Translations under genes and position numbers: made by a program
Shown: positions 9,195 to 55,738 of the stretch, piece by piece
How positions within the stretch are numbered: position 1 is the stretch's first letter
How the letters are laid out: every line of letters starts with the position of its first letter
Assembly (NCBI RefSeq): GCF_003790525.1
Contig: NZ_CP033635.1
Strand: one strand, 5' to 3'
Source: Escherichia coli
Lineage (GTDB): Bacteria > Pseudomonadota > Gammaproteobacteria > Enterobacterales > Enterobacteriaceae
DNA: 64,000 bases
The notes under the pieces: generated by a model
Seen by the model: the letters and a program-made list of their open reading frames with translations, nothing else
Databases searched by the model: none
Told to the model about the DNA's origin: nothing

Positions 9195-9764
9195 TCAACT
9201 CCGGCTACAGCCAAAATTGCGCTCACCGGTGCAGTGAGCTTTGGTATGTTCCTTCGCCAGATAGTCAGCACGTTCCAGCACCTGCTGAAAGCCAGTGTCA
9301 TCATCGCGTTCCAGCCACACCGCCGGCCAGGCCGGAAAATGCACCAGCGTGGCATGGCACCCGACATCCACTCCCAGGGCACTGCACCACGCCTGTTTAA
9401 TCATCCCGGCCAGTGATCCCGGAGCACGGTAATCACCGGCACGACACCAGGTATCCCGGTTAACCAGCAGCATCAGGTGATAGTGTTTTTTACCTTTGCA
9501 CTCCCCAAACTCCCGGGCCCAGACGTAATGCAGGGTTGTGGGATGCACGCGTTTACCTTCCCGATGCTTACGTTTCTGGTAAGCGTCGATTCGGGCTTTC
9601 AGGGCATTGATGAAGCGGGATATCACAGCTGCGTCCGTTGCTGCCGGTACATCCGGGAAACGCAGGTCAACCCGCAATGCCGTCAGGCGGGGATGAACAT
9701 TCAGTGCGTGCCGCACCGTCTCACGAATACGTTGCTGCCAGAAGGGGTTGTATTTGTAGGTCAT
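9195..9764 (-). CDS. YfjJ/YagK-family (inovirus Gp2-like) prophage protein
   Basis: N-terminus MTYKYNPFWQQRIRETV... recalled as the YfjJ/YagK family of CP4-type prophages; ATG at 9764 preceded by ggag; an upstream GTG at 9800 is an alternative start. Confidence 0.6.
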   Translation of the reverse strand: MTYKYNPFWQQRIRETVRHALNVHPRLTALRVDLRFPDVPAATDAAVISRFINALKARIDAYQKRKHREGKRVHPTTLHYVWAREFGECKGKKHYHLMLLVNRDTWCRAGDYRAPGSLAGMIKQAWCSALGVDVGCHATLVHFPAWPAVWLERDDDTGFQQVLERADYLAKEHTKAHCTGERNFGCSRS

Positions 9765-9963
9765 GGTTAAATCTCCGTATGGTTCATACGGAATAGCCAC
9801 GTCGTAAAAAATGCGCAGAGTCCCTGAAGTGACCTCCGGCAGGACACTGTCTCAGGCACTCTGTGATAACCCGAACGGTCGTCTCCGGACTGACGGTTGA
9901 ATTTTCAGCGTTGTTTTTTTAATGTAAAAAACCGGTTACGGGTAAGGCTGTGAGGAGGGAGTG

Positions 9964-10164
9964 ATGGTGATACGCAAAAAGAAGTGCAGGGACTGTGGAA
10001 ACGCGATTACTCATAATACAGTGTGTTGCCCGTATTGTGGTTCTGTCGACCCCTTCGGCTATTACCGGAATACAGACCGTATCGTTACCATACTGCTGGC
10101 ACTGATTATTGTGGTCCTGCTGACTACTGTCAGCGTCAGTGTGTATATACTGTGTAGCTGGTGA
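9964..10164 (+). CDS. Small zinc-ribbon protein with C-terminal transmembrane helix
   Basis: CRDCG...CPYCG zinc ribbon followed by hydrophobic IVTILLALIIVVLLTTVSVSVYIL; strong SD gaggaggga immediately upstream. Confidence 0.4.
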   Translation: MVIRKKKCRDCGNAITHNTVCCPYCGSVDPFGYYRNTDRIVTILLALIIVVLLTTVSVSVYILCSW

Positions 10165-11117
10165 GATAACGGTTCATGTATCCCCTGAGCTGACAGTGTA
10201 CCGGGTATATTAAGCGTAACCGACAGGTTCTCCTTCATACCATATTAAATTTTTCCAGGTATTGCCGCTGCCTTATTTCGTCCCATACAGGAAAACTCGT
10301 CTGGGTTTCTGACAAATACGCGAAACTCACAGCCCCTCAATATCAACCACACGCTGTAAGCCGGTAATACCTGAAAATCAGCCTATTACCGCCCGCGCCT
10401 CCGTTACCGAACGCTCAGGTGACCAGACTGAAGCCCAGCACGCACTCGTAAAATTTGCGGTCAGTTCCGTCAGTCAGTGGGCAACCGCAGAGTTACGGGC
10501 TTCCAGGTCCACAGGAGTGAGTCTATAACGCGTGTGGGAAATCATTTTTTCTGGCGTTGACAGAACGCCTTACGGGCTGCTACTTACCCGGTGTCCCGCA
10601 ATACAGCCTTAGTGTTCCGTTATCGGGGATCCGGACGCACCGCAACAACCGGGGAAGTATTTCTGGTTAGAGCTGTGTCAAGAGGGATTTCTCAGCCCCT
10701 CACTCACCGGCTCAGTCTCAGGGCAGAAGCATTAATACACTCAGTTCATGTCTTATACAGGAATGGGCATAGGGGGAGCTGGCGTGTCACTGCTGATTTT
10801 ACGCATCAGCGTTCATGTATCTGCACTCTGATACAGAATGCTTCACAGCGCTCTGTTACCGGAGAGATTTACTCTCTTAGGTTATTCTGGCAAATCCTTT
10901 ACGTTACTCTCTGATGACTTCTTATATTTATAATACCAATCAGACAACCTTATCCCATCGGTGATATCAGTCTCCTGCTCGCCAGGAACGGGCTGACTCA
11001 CTGTAACCACCTCCGAAAACAACTCTGCAATTATCAGAACGCCTGCTTCTCTCCCTGTCCTCACGAAAACTATCCCCTCTTTATCGCGCGTGCGTGCGGA
11101 AGCATCTTTTCGCAACA

Positions 11118-11130
11118 CCCCCCCCCCCCC
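11118..11130. repeat. Homopolymeric C13 tract
   Basis: 13 consecutive C residues, about 165 bp upstream of the alpA-like start. Confidence 0.9.
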
Positions 11131-11294
11131 GGGATTCCGCTACGGCTCTGCCATCGCAATCCCCCCGTTTATCTCCGGACAGCCACATTCCCGATTATTT
11201 TTTACGTTTCTCCCCGGTTGTTATGCCGGTGAAGGTGGCGCGCTGTTTTCATGACCACACCGGCTGGTTTAACAACATCCGGAGGAACATTCTC

Positions 11295-11501
11295 ATGGCT
11301 ACCCCAGTTTCGCTGATGGATGACCAGATGGTCGACATGGCGTTTATCACTCAACTGACCGGCCTAACCGATAAGTGGTTTGACAAACTCATCAAAGATG
11401 GGGGCTTTCCTGCGCCCATCAAAATGGGGCGCAGCTCCCGCTGGCTGAAAAGTGAAGTGGAAGCCTGGCTGCAGGCGCGTATTGCACAGTCCCGTCCGTA
11501 A
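11295..11501 (+). CDS. alpA: AlpA-family prophage transcriptional regulator
   Basis: 69-aa product MATPVSLMDDQMVDMAFITQLTGLTDKWFDKLIKDGGFPAPIKMGRSSRWLKSEVEAWL matches the AlpA/Phage_AlpA HTH family; ggagg RBS 8 nt upstream. Confidence 0.7.
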   Translation: MATPVSLMDDQMVDMAFITQLTGLTDKWFDKLIKDGGFPAPIKMGRSSRWLKSEVEAWLQARIAQSRP

Positions 11502-11579
11502 TTTTTAACCACTAACCCTTCGCCCACAGCAGACGCAATCTCCGGCCTGCCGGCGGCGCTCTGCTGCCTGTTATCCCCC

Positions 11580-12197
11580 GTGAGGAATATGAAAATGAAA
11601 CAACAGTATCAGACCCGTTACGAGCTGCTCCATGAAAACTACCAGAAATGGCTGACCGGCTTCACCCGGCACGCCGTATCATGGGGCGTGTGTCATCCGA
11701 ATATCTACTATTTCCATAATCTGACGCCCGGGTGGGTGTCATTCAATGGCGAAAAACCGGAGATTGCCATCGTTCCCCAGAGTCTGCACCGGCTGATTTA
11801 TGGTCCGGACAAACGGAGCTCCCCGTCCCTGGATGATGATCTGGTGGTGAATTTATGCACCAGCGAACACCTGCTGGTTCATCATCCGATGCTGGAAGGG
11901 ATCCTGCTGTCTGAATGTGAGCGCCTGAAGCAACATTCTCTGGCAAACAAACTGATCAGCCTCTTCCGTCAGTTTGGCGGCACGGAGTTACGTCTCAAAC
12001 TGGTCTGGCTCTGCTGGCTTGACTTAATGACCGGAAACAGCCTTGACGACTGGACGAAAAACCTGAAACACAAATCAGAAAAAGATCTGGAGCAATGGAT
12101 CATTGCACGTCAGGGTCAGAGTGAACCACTGACAAATCTGATGGATCAGTACGTGCTTATGGCATACCGTACATCGGTTGATGCCGCTCACAGTTGA
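11580..12197 (+). CDS. Hypothetical prophage protein
   Basis: 205-aa ORF 78 bp downstream of the alpA-like gene, same strand; no family recognised; start ambiguous among several Met codons. Confidence 0.5.
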   Translation: MRNMKMKQQYQTRYELLHENYQKWLTGFTRHAVSWGVCHPNIYYFHNLTPGWVSFNGEKPEIAIVPQSLHRLIYGPDKRSSPSLDDDLVVNLCTSEHLLVHHPMLEGILLSECERLKQHSLANKLISLFRQFGGTELRLKLVWLCWLDLMTGNSLDDWTKNLKHKSEKDLEQWIIARQGQSEPLTNLMDQYVLMAYRTSVDAAHS

Positions 12198-12739: not shown

Positions 12740-13591
12740 TTAAACACGAGGCATATAGGTCTGATTCCGATATTCAATTGGAGTCAGACTTTTTAATTTC
12801 AGGCTAATTCTTCTGCTGTTGTAGTATTCAATATATTCCGTAACAGCATCCTTCAGTTCGCTTATATTACTGAACTCATCAAGATAAAAACACTCCGACT
12901 TTAAGGTTCCAAAGAAACACTCCACCACAGCATTATCCAGACAATTGCCTTTTCTGGACATGCTTTGTTTAATACCATGTTCTTTAAGAATATTTTGATA
13001 TTTTCTCATACGATACTGCCATCCCTGGTCAGAGTGCAGAACAGGATGCTCGTGAGGATTAAGCTTTTTGAATGCCTGATCGAGCATATTCTCAACCATG
13101 TTCATCACTGGTCTTTCCGAAAGGCTGTAAGAAATAACTTCGTTGTTGAAGAGATCTATTACTGGAGACAAATACAGCTTGCGCCCATTGACTGCAAATT
13201 CAGTAACATCGGTAACCCACTTCTCGTTTGGCCGCGTAGCCTTGAAATCTCTTTGGAGAACATTAGGGGCGGTTTGCCCTACCTCTCCTCTGTAAGAGCG
13301 GTATCGCTTGACCTTAATCGCTGCTTTAAGTGAGAGGGTTCCCATCAGGCGCTGAACAGCTTTATGGTTAATCTGTTTCCCTTCTCGATGAAGAGACAGC
13401 GTTACCCTACGGTATCCGTATCGGCCTCTATTCTCGTGATAAATCTCACCAATACGCTTTTTAACGTCCGCATACTTGTCAGGCTTGCTGAGAGCCTTTA
13501 GATGGTAATAAAACGTACTGCGCGGTATCTCCGCAGCCCTGAGAAGCTCATCAAGAGGATAAAACTGCCTTAGCTCGTTGAGTACTTTCAC
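12740..13591 (-). CDS. insK: IS150 transposase OrfB (InsK)
   Basis: 283-aa IS3-family DDE transposase; overlaps insJ by 4 bp as expected for the -1 frameshift fusion. Confidence 0.9.
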
Positions 13592-14109
13592 TTTTTCGTG
13601 GGATGAGCTAAGGCTTTCAGCTTTTTTAGATACATAAGCCGCGTTTCAAGAAATCGAACTTGCCTTTCAAGATCCTCAATACGTCGGTCTTTTGACAGCT
13701 CCAATGCTGATGCCGCTTTTTCTGGATCAACTGATATTGCAATGTTTCTTTTGGTGCCAATCTTGAGCGCGCGTAAACCAGCTTCTCCGCGCTCTTCATA
13801 AACCTTCAGCCACCTGGCTACAGAACCACTACCAGCAAGCATAAAGTGAGCAGCAGCCTGATTAAGGGACATGTGCTGCTCGATCACAGCTTTCACGACC
13901 TTAATACGCAACTCTGGATCAGCACTAACACCTTTAGGTTTGGGAATTAAACCTTTTTCTCCATGTTTTTCATAGAGGGCAACCCATGTCCTGACCTGGG
14001 TTCGGGGGACACCAAAACGTGCCGAGATGATCCTGTAACCATCATCAGTAGTGAAGTAGTGATTCACGACTTCAAGGCGCTTTTCAAAAGGGTATTTTGG
14101 CTTTGACAT
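13588..14109 (-). CDS. insJ: IS150 OrfA (InsJ)
   Basis: 173-aa product MSKPKYPFEKRLEVVNHYFTTDDGYRIISARFGVPRTQVRTWVALYEKHG... matches InsJ of IS150 as recalled. Confidence 0.9.
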   Translation of the reverse strand: MSKPKYPFEKRLEVVNHYFTTDDGYRIISARFGVPRTQVRTWVALYEKHGEKGLIPKPKGVSADPELRIKVVKAVIEQHMSLNQAAAHFMLAGSGSVARWLKVYEERGEAGLRALKIGTKRNIAISVDPEKAASALELSKDRRIEDLERQVRFLETRLMYLKKLKALAHPTKK

Positions 14110-53672: not shown

Positions 53673-54467
53673 CTATTTATTGTATTTTACGTATATGGCT
53701 TTCTTTGTGTTATAAAGGTTTTTAACATAGGATAACCGTTTAACATGCAAGTAAAGGGGTTTAATGATAGTTTTTACCCTGACGGTTGATTTATCCCACA
53801 TTAACTGTTCATATAATTCGCCATCACAATATTTCAGACCCAGTGAACGTTTATATAAAAACAGCTCATTGCTCATCCACTTCCCAAAAAACTCTAACCC
53901 TCGAAAAACGACACCATCATAATTTTTTGCTATCTGCTTTTGCAAAATATCAACACCGTATGCCGAAAAAATATAATGGGCATCGACTTTCATTAAATAA
54001 TCACAATCACCTAAAGAAAAACTAAAATTATAAAATTCGGCCAGTGAACCATCTCCCTTTGTCACCTGATCTTTATACCCTTCTCCAGCAATAGCGAGAT
54101 TTTTATCATAAGAGTAAAGTTGTATAGAGCAAACATCAGCTAATTGATTCGATAATCTTTCTACAATATCTCTTGTATTATCTGTAGAATTATTATCTAC
54201 AACAATTATTTGTGATGCTAACCCCGAAATAGACAATATAGATGCCTCTATATATTCAGATCCGTTTTTGACTCTATATATAACAGAGACACTTGGTATT
54301 TTCCTCTTATATTCATTCTGTTTTCTTAGCTTAGCTGCAACATAATCATCAAAATCTAACCGATTGGAGTACTTCTTATCGTTTTTCGCAGATAAAAAGG
54401 AAATAGTAAAAAGATAGTAATGAAAAGATAAAATTAACTTTTTTAAAATAGAATATAAACTCATCAC
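53673..54467 (-). CDS. Glycosyltransferase, GT2-like
   Basis: VSVIYRVKNGSEYIEASILSI...VVDNNSTDNT pattern; DXD-like VDAH. Confidence 0.6.
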   Translation of the reverse strand: MMSLYSILKKLILSFHYYLFTISFLSAKNDKKYSNRLDFDDYVAAKLRKQNEYKRKIPSVSVIYRVKNGSEYIEASILSISGLASQIIVVDNNSTDNTRDIVERLSNQLADVCSIQLYSYDKNLAIAGEGYKDQVTKGDGSLAEFYNFSFSLGDCDYLMKVDAHYIFSAYGVDILQKQIAKNYDGVVFRGLEFFGKWMSNELFLYKRSLGLKYCDGELYEQLMWDKSTVRVKTIIKPLYLHVKRLSYVKNLYNTKKAIYVKYNK

Positions 54468-55738
54468 TTTATCACTCGATTAAACAATAAAATACAGTAA
54501 ATCAATGGGATTATATTAATCAATGACACGACAATTAACTTAGACACAGCTATTCCAACAACACCAAATATGTTAGTCAGATAAAATGTTATAACAAGAG
54601 ACGGTATAAGCATATATATATGCAATTTACTTATAAAACCTTGCCGATCACTCATATTTAAAAAAACATATACAGGGCAAAATATTGCATTAATAATCTG
54701 CGTCATAACTAAAATAATTAACACTTCGCTAGCATTACTGTATTGAACACCAAATATAGATAATATCAGCCCTGAAAAAAAGGGAAACAGAAGAGCCATT
54801 AAAACACATGGTATCATTATGAAGAACATAGCTTTTTTAGTTAGCTCTTTTATTTCATTCATTTTACTTTGGCTGTATAAACTGGCGACCTTAGGTGCCA
54901 GAATTGTGCTAATTGACATTGCAAATAAATTTATAACCAAGGATATTCTATCAGACACAGCAATAATAGCGACATCAGCAGCTGGGAGCAACAAACCGGA
55001 AAGTACAACATAAGATTGAACAATCAGCATTCCTAATGAGTTACCAATGAAATACTCTGATAATTCTTTCAGTCTAAACGGTATTGACTCTGTTTCTAAC
55101 CGATTGAAATCGTCCCTAAATTTATAATACGAGTATACCCCCCCCCCTCCTCCAATAAGAATAATTGAGAAGAAGTATGATAAAGACACCAGTAAAACAC
55201 TTTCATTTTTAATCAGAACAATAAGTAATACAAAAAAAATAAACAATAAGGGTTGAAATATATACTGCAGAACAACACTAAAAGTGACAAGACCTTGAGA
55301 CTGTAAAAAGGAATATAACAATATATTTACTGACGATGATATTATCAACAGAATCGCCAAACACCATGTATTTCGTAATAATAATTGTGGCGAAAAATAA
55401 TGAATTATAGGTATTAAAATGATAGATAAGATAATACTGGATATAACACTCCGTTTTATGCATCTAAGAAAAAAAACGCCTCGTGCTTTTAATGCATATT
55501 TAACTGAGGCACATTTTTTCAAAATTAAATTATTTTGTCCTAAAGAGGATAGGGACGATATTATTCCAGTTACTGATAATAGGAAGAAAACCCCACCAGC
55601 CTCACTCATATTGAGCGTTCTTGATATCATCACACTCGTTGACAGCGCAAGTATAGCGCCGAATATCCTCAACACAAATACAGTTTTAATTGTAAACATT
55701 AACTTCTCGTTATTTACCCAAAGACCTCTTTGCAACAA
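54464..55738 (-). CDS. wzx: O-antigen flippase Wzx
   Basis: 424-aa polytopic membrane protein; first gene after the JUMPstart; contains an internal G10 coding-strand homopolymer. Confidence 0.8.
   Translation of the reverse strand: MLQRGLWVNNEKLMFTIKTVFVLRIFGAILALSTSVMISRTLNMSEAGGVFFLLSVTGIISSLSSLGQNNLILKKCASVKYALKARGVFFLRCIKRSVISSIILSIILIPIIHYFSPQLLLRNTWCLAILLIISSSVNILLYSFLQSQGLVTFSVVLQYIFQPLLFIFFVLLIVLIKNESVLLVSLSYFFSIILIGGGGGVYSYYKFRDDFNRLETESIPFRLKELSEYFIGNSLGMLIVQSYVVLSGLLLPAADVAIIAVSDRISLVINLFAMSISTILAPKVASLYSQSKMNEIKELTKKAMFFIMIPCVLMALLFPFFSGLILSIFGVQYSNASEVLIILVMTQIINAIFCPVYVFLNMSDRQGFISKLHIYMLIPSLVITFYLTNIFGVVGIAVSKLIVVSLINIIPLIYCILLFNRVIK
55138..55147. repeat. Homopolymeric C10 tract (G10 on the wzx coding strand)
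   Basis: Ten consecutive C residues inside wzx, encoding part of GGGGG in IILIGGGGGVYSYY. Confidence 0.9.

What the first reader, a model, noticed from the sequence alone, without database searches (positions are those of the whole stretch)
11118..11130. C13 homopolymer upstream of the alpA-like prophage regulator
A 13-nt poly-C run is unusual for E. coli and lies about 165 bp upstream of the alpA-like start. Tract-length changes could alter promoter geometry and so expression of the regulator, or the tract could be a scar or an assembly artefact.
Basis: seen in the sequence. Interest (0 to 1): 0.4.

Follow-up and report, generated by a model that had tools for sequence, protein, structure and literature searches.

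The report
Hypervariable poly-C repeat upstream of alpA-like gene
The run of 13 C's is a real fast-mutating DNA repeat, 9 to 20 C's long in different E. coli strains, lying in the least conserved part of a non-coding stretch of a genomic island, with no sign that it controls the neighbouring regulator gene.

Summary
The C13 run is at window 11118-11130, 164 nt before the ATG (11295) of a 68-aa AlpA/Vis-family gene. About 0.001 such runs are expected by chance in the window.

It is a polymorphic mononucleotide microsatellite, not a scar or an assembly artefact. At least 179 of 5,426 complete E. coli genomes carry a long pure C run at this chromosomal site. Runs of 9-17, 19 and 20 were read directly. 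Six copies with C13, C14, C16, C17, C19 and C20 have identical 2-kb flanks. Four near-clonal strain pairs agree in length. Shorter alleles form a series: CAACCACCC, CAACCCCCC, CAA-C7, CA-C7/C9, and an interrupted CA-C6TCC.

The promoter-geometry idea finds no support:
- No -35/-10 pair flanks the tract on either strand.
- No conserved ORF crosses it, and allele lengths show no 3-nt periodicity.
- It lies in the conservation minimum of the intergenic region, next to a 13-nt deletion in other copies.
- It lies outside the ~130-nt conserved core before the gene.

It is most likely a near-neutral slippage product in a C-rich, G-poor stretch. A graded effect on expression is not excluded, whether through DNA spacing or through Rho loading on a C-rich leader RNA. 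Interest is modest.

The parts
11118..11130 (+). Poly-C tract, C13 (poly-G on the minus strand); the hypervariable mononucleotide repeat
   Evidence: sequence. (pure runs of 9-17, 19 and 20 at the same site in other E. coli; identical flanks).
11116..11117 (+). 'CA' preface to the tract. A11117 is C in a second backbone, which fuses C11116 into the run.
   Evidence: both backbones, CA-Cn and pure Cn, occur in several lengths.
11101..11160 (.). Local conservation minimum of the intergenic region; it contains the tract and the site of a 13-nt deletion in diverged copies
   Evidence: 10, 8 and 2 invariant columns per 20. (L017 and L018 deletion).
10900..11215 (+). C-rich, G-poor stretch (C about 38%, G about 16% over 10940-11215; C/G 1.2-2.85 in 80-nt windows, at least 1.8 from 10900 to about 11220). 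This is the substrate in which the repeat arose, and it is rut-like if transcribed rightwards.
11165..11294 (+). Conserved core upstream of the alpA-like gene; the only upstream part retained in the most divergent copy (L056)
11206..11288 (+). Predicted conserved leader hairpin of three stacked helices. It pairs TTTCTCC (11207-11213) with the Shine-Dalgarno GGAGGA (11281-11286).
   Evidence: RNAalifold on 9 diverged copies; the sequence is nearly invariant, so there is little covariation evidence.
11295..11501 (+). alpA-like gene: 68-aa AlpA/Vis-family helix-turn-helix protein
   Evidence: PF05930. RefSeq annotation WP_000235214.1, 'helix-turn-helix / AlpA family transcriptional regulator'.
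10923..10946 (.). Highly conserved AT-rich block with a perfect TATAAT (10929-10934, + strand) and a TGnTATTAT extended -10 on the minus strand. It is a candidate divergent promoter about 180 nt upstream of the tract.
   Evidence: consensus matches only; not shown to be functional.
9961..10164 (+). Small annotated ORF (67 aa, zinc-ribbon-like, WP_001297900.1) that bounds the 1.1-kb non-coding gap on the left
9195..9800 (-). YagK/YfjJ (inovirus Gp2-like) family gene of the island
   Evidence: PF11726, E = 1e-47
11595..12197 (+). 200-aa hypothetical protein gene downstream of alpA-like (WP_000813432.1); no Pfam match

Best explanation
The tract is a hypermutable mononucleotide microsatellite in non-coding DNA. 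It lies in a degraded CP4-type genomic island at the chromosomal position that CP4-44 occupies in K-12. It arose in a C-rich stretch when point substitutions purified the ancestral CAACCACCC into an uninterrupted C run (CAACCCCCC, then CAA-C7 and CA-C7/C9). Once long enough, the run expanded and contracted by replication slippage, giving C9 to C20 in present-day strains. A C-to-T interruption (CA-C6TCC) froze it in another large set of strains. The length changes are most likely close to neutral, because the tract lies in the least constrained part of the intergenic region, outside any recognisable promoter, ORF or conserved core. Shown here: the allelic series, the length polymorphism on identical flanks, and the absence of promoter or ORF context. 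Inferred: slippage as the mechanism, and neutrality.
For: - Alleles: the site reads CAACCACCC in diverged paralogous copies, and CAACCCCCC, CAA-C7, CA-C7, CA-C9, C10 and CA-C6TCC in closer ones.
- Allele counts in 5,426 complete genomes on the GGGATTCC haplotype: CAACCACCC 199, CAA-C7 226, CA-C6TCC 454, long pure runs at least 179.
- Long alleles: one place per genome and all chromosomal. A sample of 60 of the 179 gives insert lengths of 11 to 22 nt with no 3-nt periodicity.
- Runs read directly: 9-17, 19 and 20, on two backbones.
- Flanks: the window (C13), L053 (C14), L050 (C16), L049 (C17), L048 (C19) and L047 (C20) have no difference over about 2 kb outside the tract site itself (the run and, in L048, the adjacent A11117-to-C change). 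The tract therefore mutates far faster than point substitution.
- Reproducibility: four near-clonal strain pairs have equal lengths. A C10 run in wzx has the same length in 31 of 34 genomes.
- Low constraint: the tract is in a conservation minimum. There is a 13-nt deletion beside it in L017 and L018, and 1- and 2-nt indels in the surrounding region. The whole segment is replaced in L056.
- No sigma-70-like hexamer pair flanks it. There is no Rfam match.
Against: - Neutrality is inferred from context, not measured.
- The surrounding 1.1-kb non-coding region is otherwise well conserved and is C-rich and G-poor. It could therefore be a functional leader in which a poly-C insert matters.
- The alpA-like promoter has not been mapped.
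- A homopolymer this long is rare in E. coli. Its persistence at 9-20 nt in about 3% of complete genomes could reflect tolerance or weak selection.
- Some of the length spread may be homopolymer error in long-read-only assemblies. The sequencing technology of each assembly was not available.
Confidence: 0.68

Rival explanations
1. DNA-level contingency or rheostat element. Tract length changes the spacing and helical phase between the conserved upstream block (about 11062-11117) and the conserved core (11165 onwards). This would tune or switch transcription of the alpA-like regulator, and through it island genes, as the Bordetella fim C-stretch or the H. pylori sabA T-tract do.
For: The tract is hypervariable between strains with identical flanks. 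It lies between two conserved non-coding blocks, 164 nt upstream of a regulator gene. The precedent for a rheostat tract outside the -35/-10 spacer is PMC4081817, seen only as a title and abstract in the listing.
Against: No -35/-10 pair brackets the tract on either strand, even at a lenient threshold of 8 of 12. The spacing between the same two blocks differs by 13 nt in L017 and L018, and by -6 to +7 elsewhere, with the alpA-like ORF intact. The segment is absent from the divergent copy L056. Near-clonal pairs do not differ, so switching is not very fast.
Confidence: 0.12
2. RNA-level effect. The tract is transcribed as part of a long, untranslated, C-rich leader, for example from the conserved TATAAT at 10929-10934. 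A longer poly(C) run would strengthen Rho loading (a rut site) or change leader folding, lowering read-through into the alpA-like gene.
For: The plus strand from 10900 to 11215 is C-rich and G-poor, with a C/G ratio peaking at 2.85 in the window that holds the tract. No intrinsic terminator lies between the small upstream ORF and the gene, apart from a weak hairpin at 11224-11240. A conserved leader hairpin sequesters the Shine-Dalgarno sequence, so some leader RNA exists upstream of 11206. Rho's preference for C-rich, unstructured RNA is established knowledge, cited from memory.
Against: Transcription across the tract is not shown. The candidate promoter has a poor -35. C-richness exists with or without the expansion. 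L056 keeps the hairpin but lacks the C-rich segment.
Confidence: 0.12
3. Translational phase variation. The tract lies in a small ORF, so length changes shift the frame. The candidates are the minus-strand ORF 10882-11118, annotated as an 88-aa hypothetical protein in some genomes, and the plus-strand GTG-11094 extension that is in frame with alpA.
For: PGAP annotates a minus-strand hypothetical protein across the site in some genomes. In the window, the alpA frame is open upstream through the tract to GTG 11094.
Against: Diverged copies carry 1- and 2-nt indels, and 13- and 14-nt deletions, in both candidate ORFs. In the window, an in-frame TAG precedes the tract on the minus strand (read). 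There is no Shine-Dalgarno sequence before GTG 11094, whereas the annotated ATG 11295 has GGAGGA 8 nt upstream. Allele lengths show no 3-nt periodicity. The 78-aa ORF has no Pfam match.
Confidence: 0.02
4. Assembly or sequencing artefact: the long run is not in the real genome.
For: Homopolymers longer than 10 are error-prone on several platforms. No metagenome contig among 27 carried a run longer than 10.
Against: There are 179 independent complete assemblies with a long run at the same site, and 9 with exactly C13. They include SMS-3-5, which I recall (from memory) to be a Sanger-era genome. Near-clonal pairs have equal lengths. Illumina-type metagenome contigs show C9 and C10. A C10 control is stable in 31 of 34 genomes.
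Confidence: 0.03

Closest known systems
Polymorphic non-coding mononucleotide repeats of E. coli (Gur-Arie et al. 2000, Genome Res 10:62, as listed in the references of PMC3503616; content recalled from memory)
   Same: A perfect mononucleotide run in non-coding DNA that is multi-allelic among strains on conserved flanks and is attributed to replication slippage.
   Different: This run is much longer (up to C20) and has more alleles than, as I recall, the short runs that paper describes for K-12. It also sits in a horizontally acquired island rather than the core genome.
Bordetella pertussis fim2/fim3 promoter C-stretch (phase-variable fimbriae; from memory)
   Same: A run of about 13-15 C upstream of a gene, with length varying by slippage.
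   Different: In Bordetella the C-stretch lies between the activator (BvgA) site and the -10 hexamer, so its length sets promoter spacing. Here no -10 or -35 adjoins the tract, and spacing is unconstrained in related copies.
Helicobacter pylori sabA T-tract rheostat (PMC4081817; seen only as a title and abstract)
   Same: A homopolymer whose length variation could act on nearby promoter function. As I recall the paper, the sabA tract lies upstream of the core promoter and gives graded rather than on/off effects.
   Different: The sabA effect is shown experimentally and, as I recall, the tract abuts the -35 element. Here the promoter is unmapped and the tract is 164 nt from the start codon, in a poorly conserved segment.
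Neisseria meningitidis porA / opc promoter poly-G / poly-C tracts (from memory)
   Same: G/C homopolymers upstream of a gene that vary between and within strains.
   Different: Those tracts lie in or beside the -35/-10 spacer, in a species rich in such repeats. Known E. coli phase variation works mainly by inversion and methylation; the E. coli examples returned by a search of the review PMC11868660 are of those kinds.

Membership tests
Polymorphic non-coding mononucleotide repeat (microsatellite) | Uninterrupted run of one nucleotide outside any conserved ORF | tested here: met
   (C13). (frame-breaking indels in both ORFs that cross the site). (no family match).
Polymorphic non-coding mononucleotide repeat (microsatellite) | Several length alleles at the same locus on conserved flanks | tested here: met
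   (C9-C20 in at least 179 genomes). (no difference over 2 kb of flank among six alleles).
Polymorphic non-coding mononucleotide repeat (microsatellite) | Origin from a proto-repeat by substitution, followed by length change; interrupted derivatives exist | tested here: met
   CAACCACCC, CAACCCCCC, CAA-C7, CA-C7/C9, C10-C20, and CA-C6TCC.
SSR contingency locus, transcriptional type (promoter homopolymer) | Repeat lies in the -35/-10 spacer, or between an activator site and the -10, of the regulated gene | tested here: not met
   no hexamer pair flanks 11118-11130 on either strand. The nearest candidates are at 10898-10928 (+) and 11224-11194 (-).
SSR contingency locus, translational type | Repeat lies inside a real ORF, so that length sets the reading frame | tested here: not met
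   (the ORFs are not conserved). (no 3-nt periodicity of allele lengths).
SSR contingency locus (any type) | Length heterogeneity within a clonal culture, and an expression change linked to length | not testable with these tools
   This needs reads or amplicons and reporter assays. Four near-clonal genome pairs show no difference.
Rho utilisation (rut) region | C-rich, G-poor stretch of about 80 nt | tested here: met
   C/G of 2.0-2.85 in 80-nt windows from 10980 to 11220.
Rho utilisation (rut) region | Located on a transcribed, untranslated RNA, with termination dependent on Rho | not testable with these tools
   No transcription start or termination data are available. The promoter candidates are weak.
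AlpA/Vis family regulator (the neighbouring gene) | Match to Pfam PF05930 above the gathering score | tested here: met
   25.2 bits against a cutoff of 21, covering residues 13-59.

The most novel reading that the evidence does not exclude
The tract is a genuine simple-sequence contingency locus in E. coli. Slippage in the poly-C run tunes or switches expression of the AlpA/Vis-family regulator, either through DNA spacing or through Rho loading on a C-rich leader. Cell lineages would then differ stochastically in activation or excision of the island. This would be an SSR-driven bet-hedging switch in a species where phase variation is otherwise known mainly from inversion and methylation.
Probability: 0.12. 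Interest if true: 0.6.

Novelty: new member of a known kind. Interest (0 to 1): 0.27.

Why it matters
As it stands, the tract is a well-documented example of the birth, growth and interruption of a microsatellite in E. coli. It is also a practical caution for assembly and variant calling: the site will generate spurious indels. It could serve as a fine-scale typing marker in the lineages that carry it. If length proved to affect the alpA-like regulator, it would add a repeat-based stochastic switch on a genomic-island regulator to E. coli's known mechanisms. The present evidence does not point that way.

Tried and rejected
- **Known RNA families.** Rfam at E up to 1 over 9800-11700 found nothing.
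- **Promoters and terminators.** The tool's scan and my own lenient scan found nothing flanking the tract.
- **Coding readings.** I rejected the minus-strand 78/88-aa ORF and the plus-strand GTG-11094 extension of alpA. Reasons: indels in relatives, an in-frame TAG, no Shine-Dalgarno sequence, and no 3-nt periodicity.
- **Operator next to the tract.** A perfect palindrome CCGGTATACCGG occurs in L008, L011 and L012, but it is not conserved in the other copies. I did not pursue it.
- **Phage collection.** The 1.4-kb region has no match.
- **Species-representative genomes.** Two pattern scans gave no hit, then one hit on a contig labelled Collinsella MAG that looks like E. coli DNA. No tracts from other species could be compared.
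- **IMG/VR.** The single hit carries the short allele.
- **Literature.** Four full-text searches found nothing on this tract. Gur-Arie et al. 2000 is not held.
- **Scar hypothesis.** Rejected because of the stepwise allelic series.

Full report
**Observation.** Window 11118-11130 is an uninterrupted run of 13 C, in the context GCAACA-C13-GGGATTCC. With the window's base composition, about 0.001 C or G runs of this length are expected in 64 kb. The only other C/G run longer than 7 is a C10 at 55138-55147. The neighbouring gene is 11295-11501 (+). It encodes a 68-aa protein that matches Pfam PF05930 (Phage_AlpA) above the curated cutoff. RefSeq annotates it as a helix-turn-helix or AlpA-family regulator.

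**Context.**
- The region is 100% identical to E. coli strain 144, a canine isolate.
- It belongs to a degraded CP4-type island. The island carries IS fragments, two zinc-ribbon genes, a YagK/YfjJ gene, a small ORF at 9961-10164, then 1.1 kb without annotated genes, then the alpA-like gene, a 200-aa hypothetical gene and IS150.
- Homologous intergenic regions occur in 3,543 of 5,426 complete E. coli genomes, with a median of two copies per genome.
- No match was found in 50,697 phage records or, at the stringency used, in the species-representative genome set.

**What the tract is.**
- I aligned 18 E. coli copies and read 27 metagenome contigs. The site reads CAACCACCC in the diverged copies. 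Closer copies read CAACCCCCC, CAA-C7, CA-C7, CA-C9, C10 and CA-C6TCC.
- A 41-nt query spanning the tract recovers only long alleles. It finds 179 genomes, each with one chromosomal place. A systematic sample of 60 gives insert lengths of 11 to 22 nt.
- Reading individual loci gave pure runs of 9-17, 19 and 20, on two backbones: CA-Cn, and Cn after an A11117-to-C change.
- Exact-match counts for the short alleles on the same haplotype are CA-C6TCC 454, CAA-C7 226 and CAACCACCC 199.
- This pattern is the life cycle of a microsatellite. Substitutions purify a proto-repeat, slippage then changes its length, and an interrupting substitution stabilises it.
- The window and five other strains (C13, C14, C16, C17, C19, C20) have no difference in about 2 kb of flank. 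The tract therefore mutates much faster than the point-substitution rate.

**Not an artefact, not a scar.**
- Nine genomes share exactly C13.
- Four near-clonal pairs have the same length: DETEC-P649/P666, KN13-4/KN12-1, GN03551/GN03139 and APEC E16002/E18006.
- SMS-3-5, which I recall to be a Sanger-era genome, has CA-C14.
- Short-read metagenome contigs show C9 and C10.
- As an internal control, the C10 inside the O21 wzx gene of this same window has the same length in 31 of 34 genomes.
- Homopolymer error may blur individual lengths by a base or two. It cannot create a range of 9 to 20.
- The stepwise allelic series excludes a one-off scar.

**Does it control the alpA-like gene?** Five tests give no support.
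1. No sigma-70-like -35/-10 pair brackets the tract on either strand, in the tool's scan or in a more lenient scan. The nearest candidates are about 180 nt upstream (TTTACG-19-TATATT, beside a perfect TATAAT at 10929-10934) and a minus-strand site at 11224-11194.
2. The tract lies in the conservation minimum of the region. Positions 11101-11160 have 10, 8 and 2 invariant columns per 20. The blocks at 11023-11042 and 11198-11237 have 18 or 19.
3. Copies L017 and L018 carry a 13-nt deletion just 3' of the site and still have an intact alpA-like ORF. Spacing here is therefore not constrained.
4. The most divergent copy found (L056) keeps only about 130 nt upstream of the ATG. Its sequence at the tract position is unrelated.
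5. Coding readings fail. Both ORFs that cross the tract are broken by non-3n indels in relatives. The minus-strand frame has a TAG just upstream in the window. Allele lengths show no 3-nt periodicity.

**What remains possible.**
- The plus strand from about 10900 to 11215 is strongly C-rich and G-poor, with C/G up to 2.85 in the window holding the tract.
- The conserved core folds into a three-helix hairpin (11206-11288) that pairs TTTCTCC with the Shine-Dalgarno GGAGGA. The sequence is nearly invariant, so covariation evidence is weak.
- If transcription starts upstream of the tract, the poly(C) would sit in an untranslated C-rich leader, which is the kind of RNA that Rho loads on (established knowledge, from memory). 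Tract length might then modulate read-through.
- Alternatively, length could change the helical phase between two conserved DNA blocks. This would be a rheostat of the kind described for H. pylori sabA (PMC4081817, listed).
- I give each of these about 0.12.

**Comparison with known systems.** It works like, and qualifies as, a polymorphic non-coding mononucleotide repeat. This class was described for E. coli by Gur-Arie et al. 2000 (reference seen; content recalled from memory). It resembles promoter homopolymers of Bordetella fim and Neisseria porA/opc in composition and variability. It fails the defining positional feature of that class, which was tested here and not met. I found no paper describing this tract.

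**Verdict.** The tract is a real, hypervariable poly-C microsatellite, most likely a near-neutral slippage product. The promoter-geometry interpretation is unsupported but not experimentally excluded. The scar and artefact alternatives are rejected. It is a new member of a known kind, of modest interest.

Noticed in passing
window 55138-55147 (minus-strand ORF 54464-55738): A C10 run (G10 on the coding strand, encoding GGGG) lies inside the O21-family O-antigen flippase gene wzx. The ORF is intact here. 31 of 34 O21 genomes have the same length, two are 1 nt shorter and one is 3 nt shorter. It could be a frameshift-prone site in an O-antigen gene, or those could be assembly errors.
   Followed up: partly
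window 11206-11288: A predicted, nearly invariant leader hairpin of three stacked helices pairs TTTCTCC with the Shine-Dalgarno GGAGGA of the alpA-like gene. A 14-nt deletion in L015 removes only loop sequence. An inner hairpin plus TGTTTTC (11224-11250) looks like a weak terminator, which suggests attenuator-like control.
   Followed up: partly
window 11085-11098: A conserved alternating pyrimidine-purine stretch, CGCGCGTGCGTGCG (CGCGCGCGCGTGCG in some copies), lies about 20 nt upstream of the tract. It is potentially Z-DNA-prone. Its function is unknown.
   Followed up: no
L008, L011, L012 (position equivalent to window 11128-11141): Some paralogous copies carry a perfect 12-bp palindrome, CCGGTATACCGG, immediately 3' of the tract site. 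It is degenerate in the window lineage (CCGGGATTCCGC) and in other copies.
   Followed up: partly
window 10104-12144 compared with L047-L053: About 2 kb around the tract is 100% identical in strains from dog, poultry and human, and in SMS-3-5. Only L051 and L052 show a few SNPs. This suggests recent horizontal spread or recombination of this island segment across E. coli backgrounds.
   Followed up: no
window 10900-11500 compared with 55090-55195: Strain 144 matches the island segment at 100% but is absent from the 34 genomes that carry this window's O21 wzx segment. The window therefore comes from a different strain than its best island match, and none of the 34 is identical over the wzx segment.
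   Followed up: partly
window 10923-10946: A very highly conserved AT-rich block holds a perfect TATAAT on the plus strand and a TGnTATTAT extended -10 on the minus strand. It is a possible divergent promoter in the middle of the 1.1-kb 'empty' region.
   Followed up: partly
L056 (JAIJJM010000108.1, labelled 'Collinsella sp.' MAG): A 7.2-kb contig binned as Collinsella carries the E. coli-type alpA-like leader and gene start. It is probably a mis-binned Enterobacteriaceae contig.
   Followed up: no
window 12740-14109: An intact IS150 (IS3 family, with a programmed frameshift between its two ORFs) is inserted about 540 nt downstream of the stop codon of the 200-aa gene that follows the alpA-like gene. 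Other IS fragments lie upstream, so the island is decayed.
   Followed up: no
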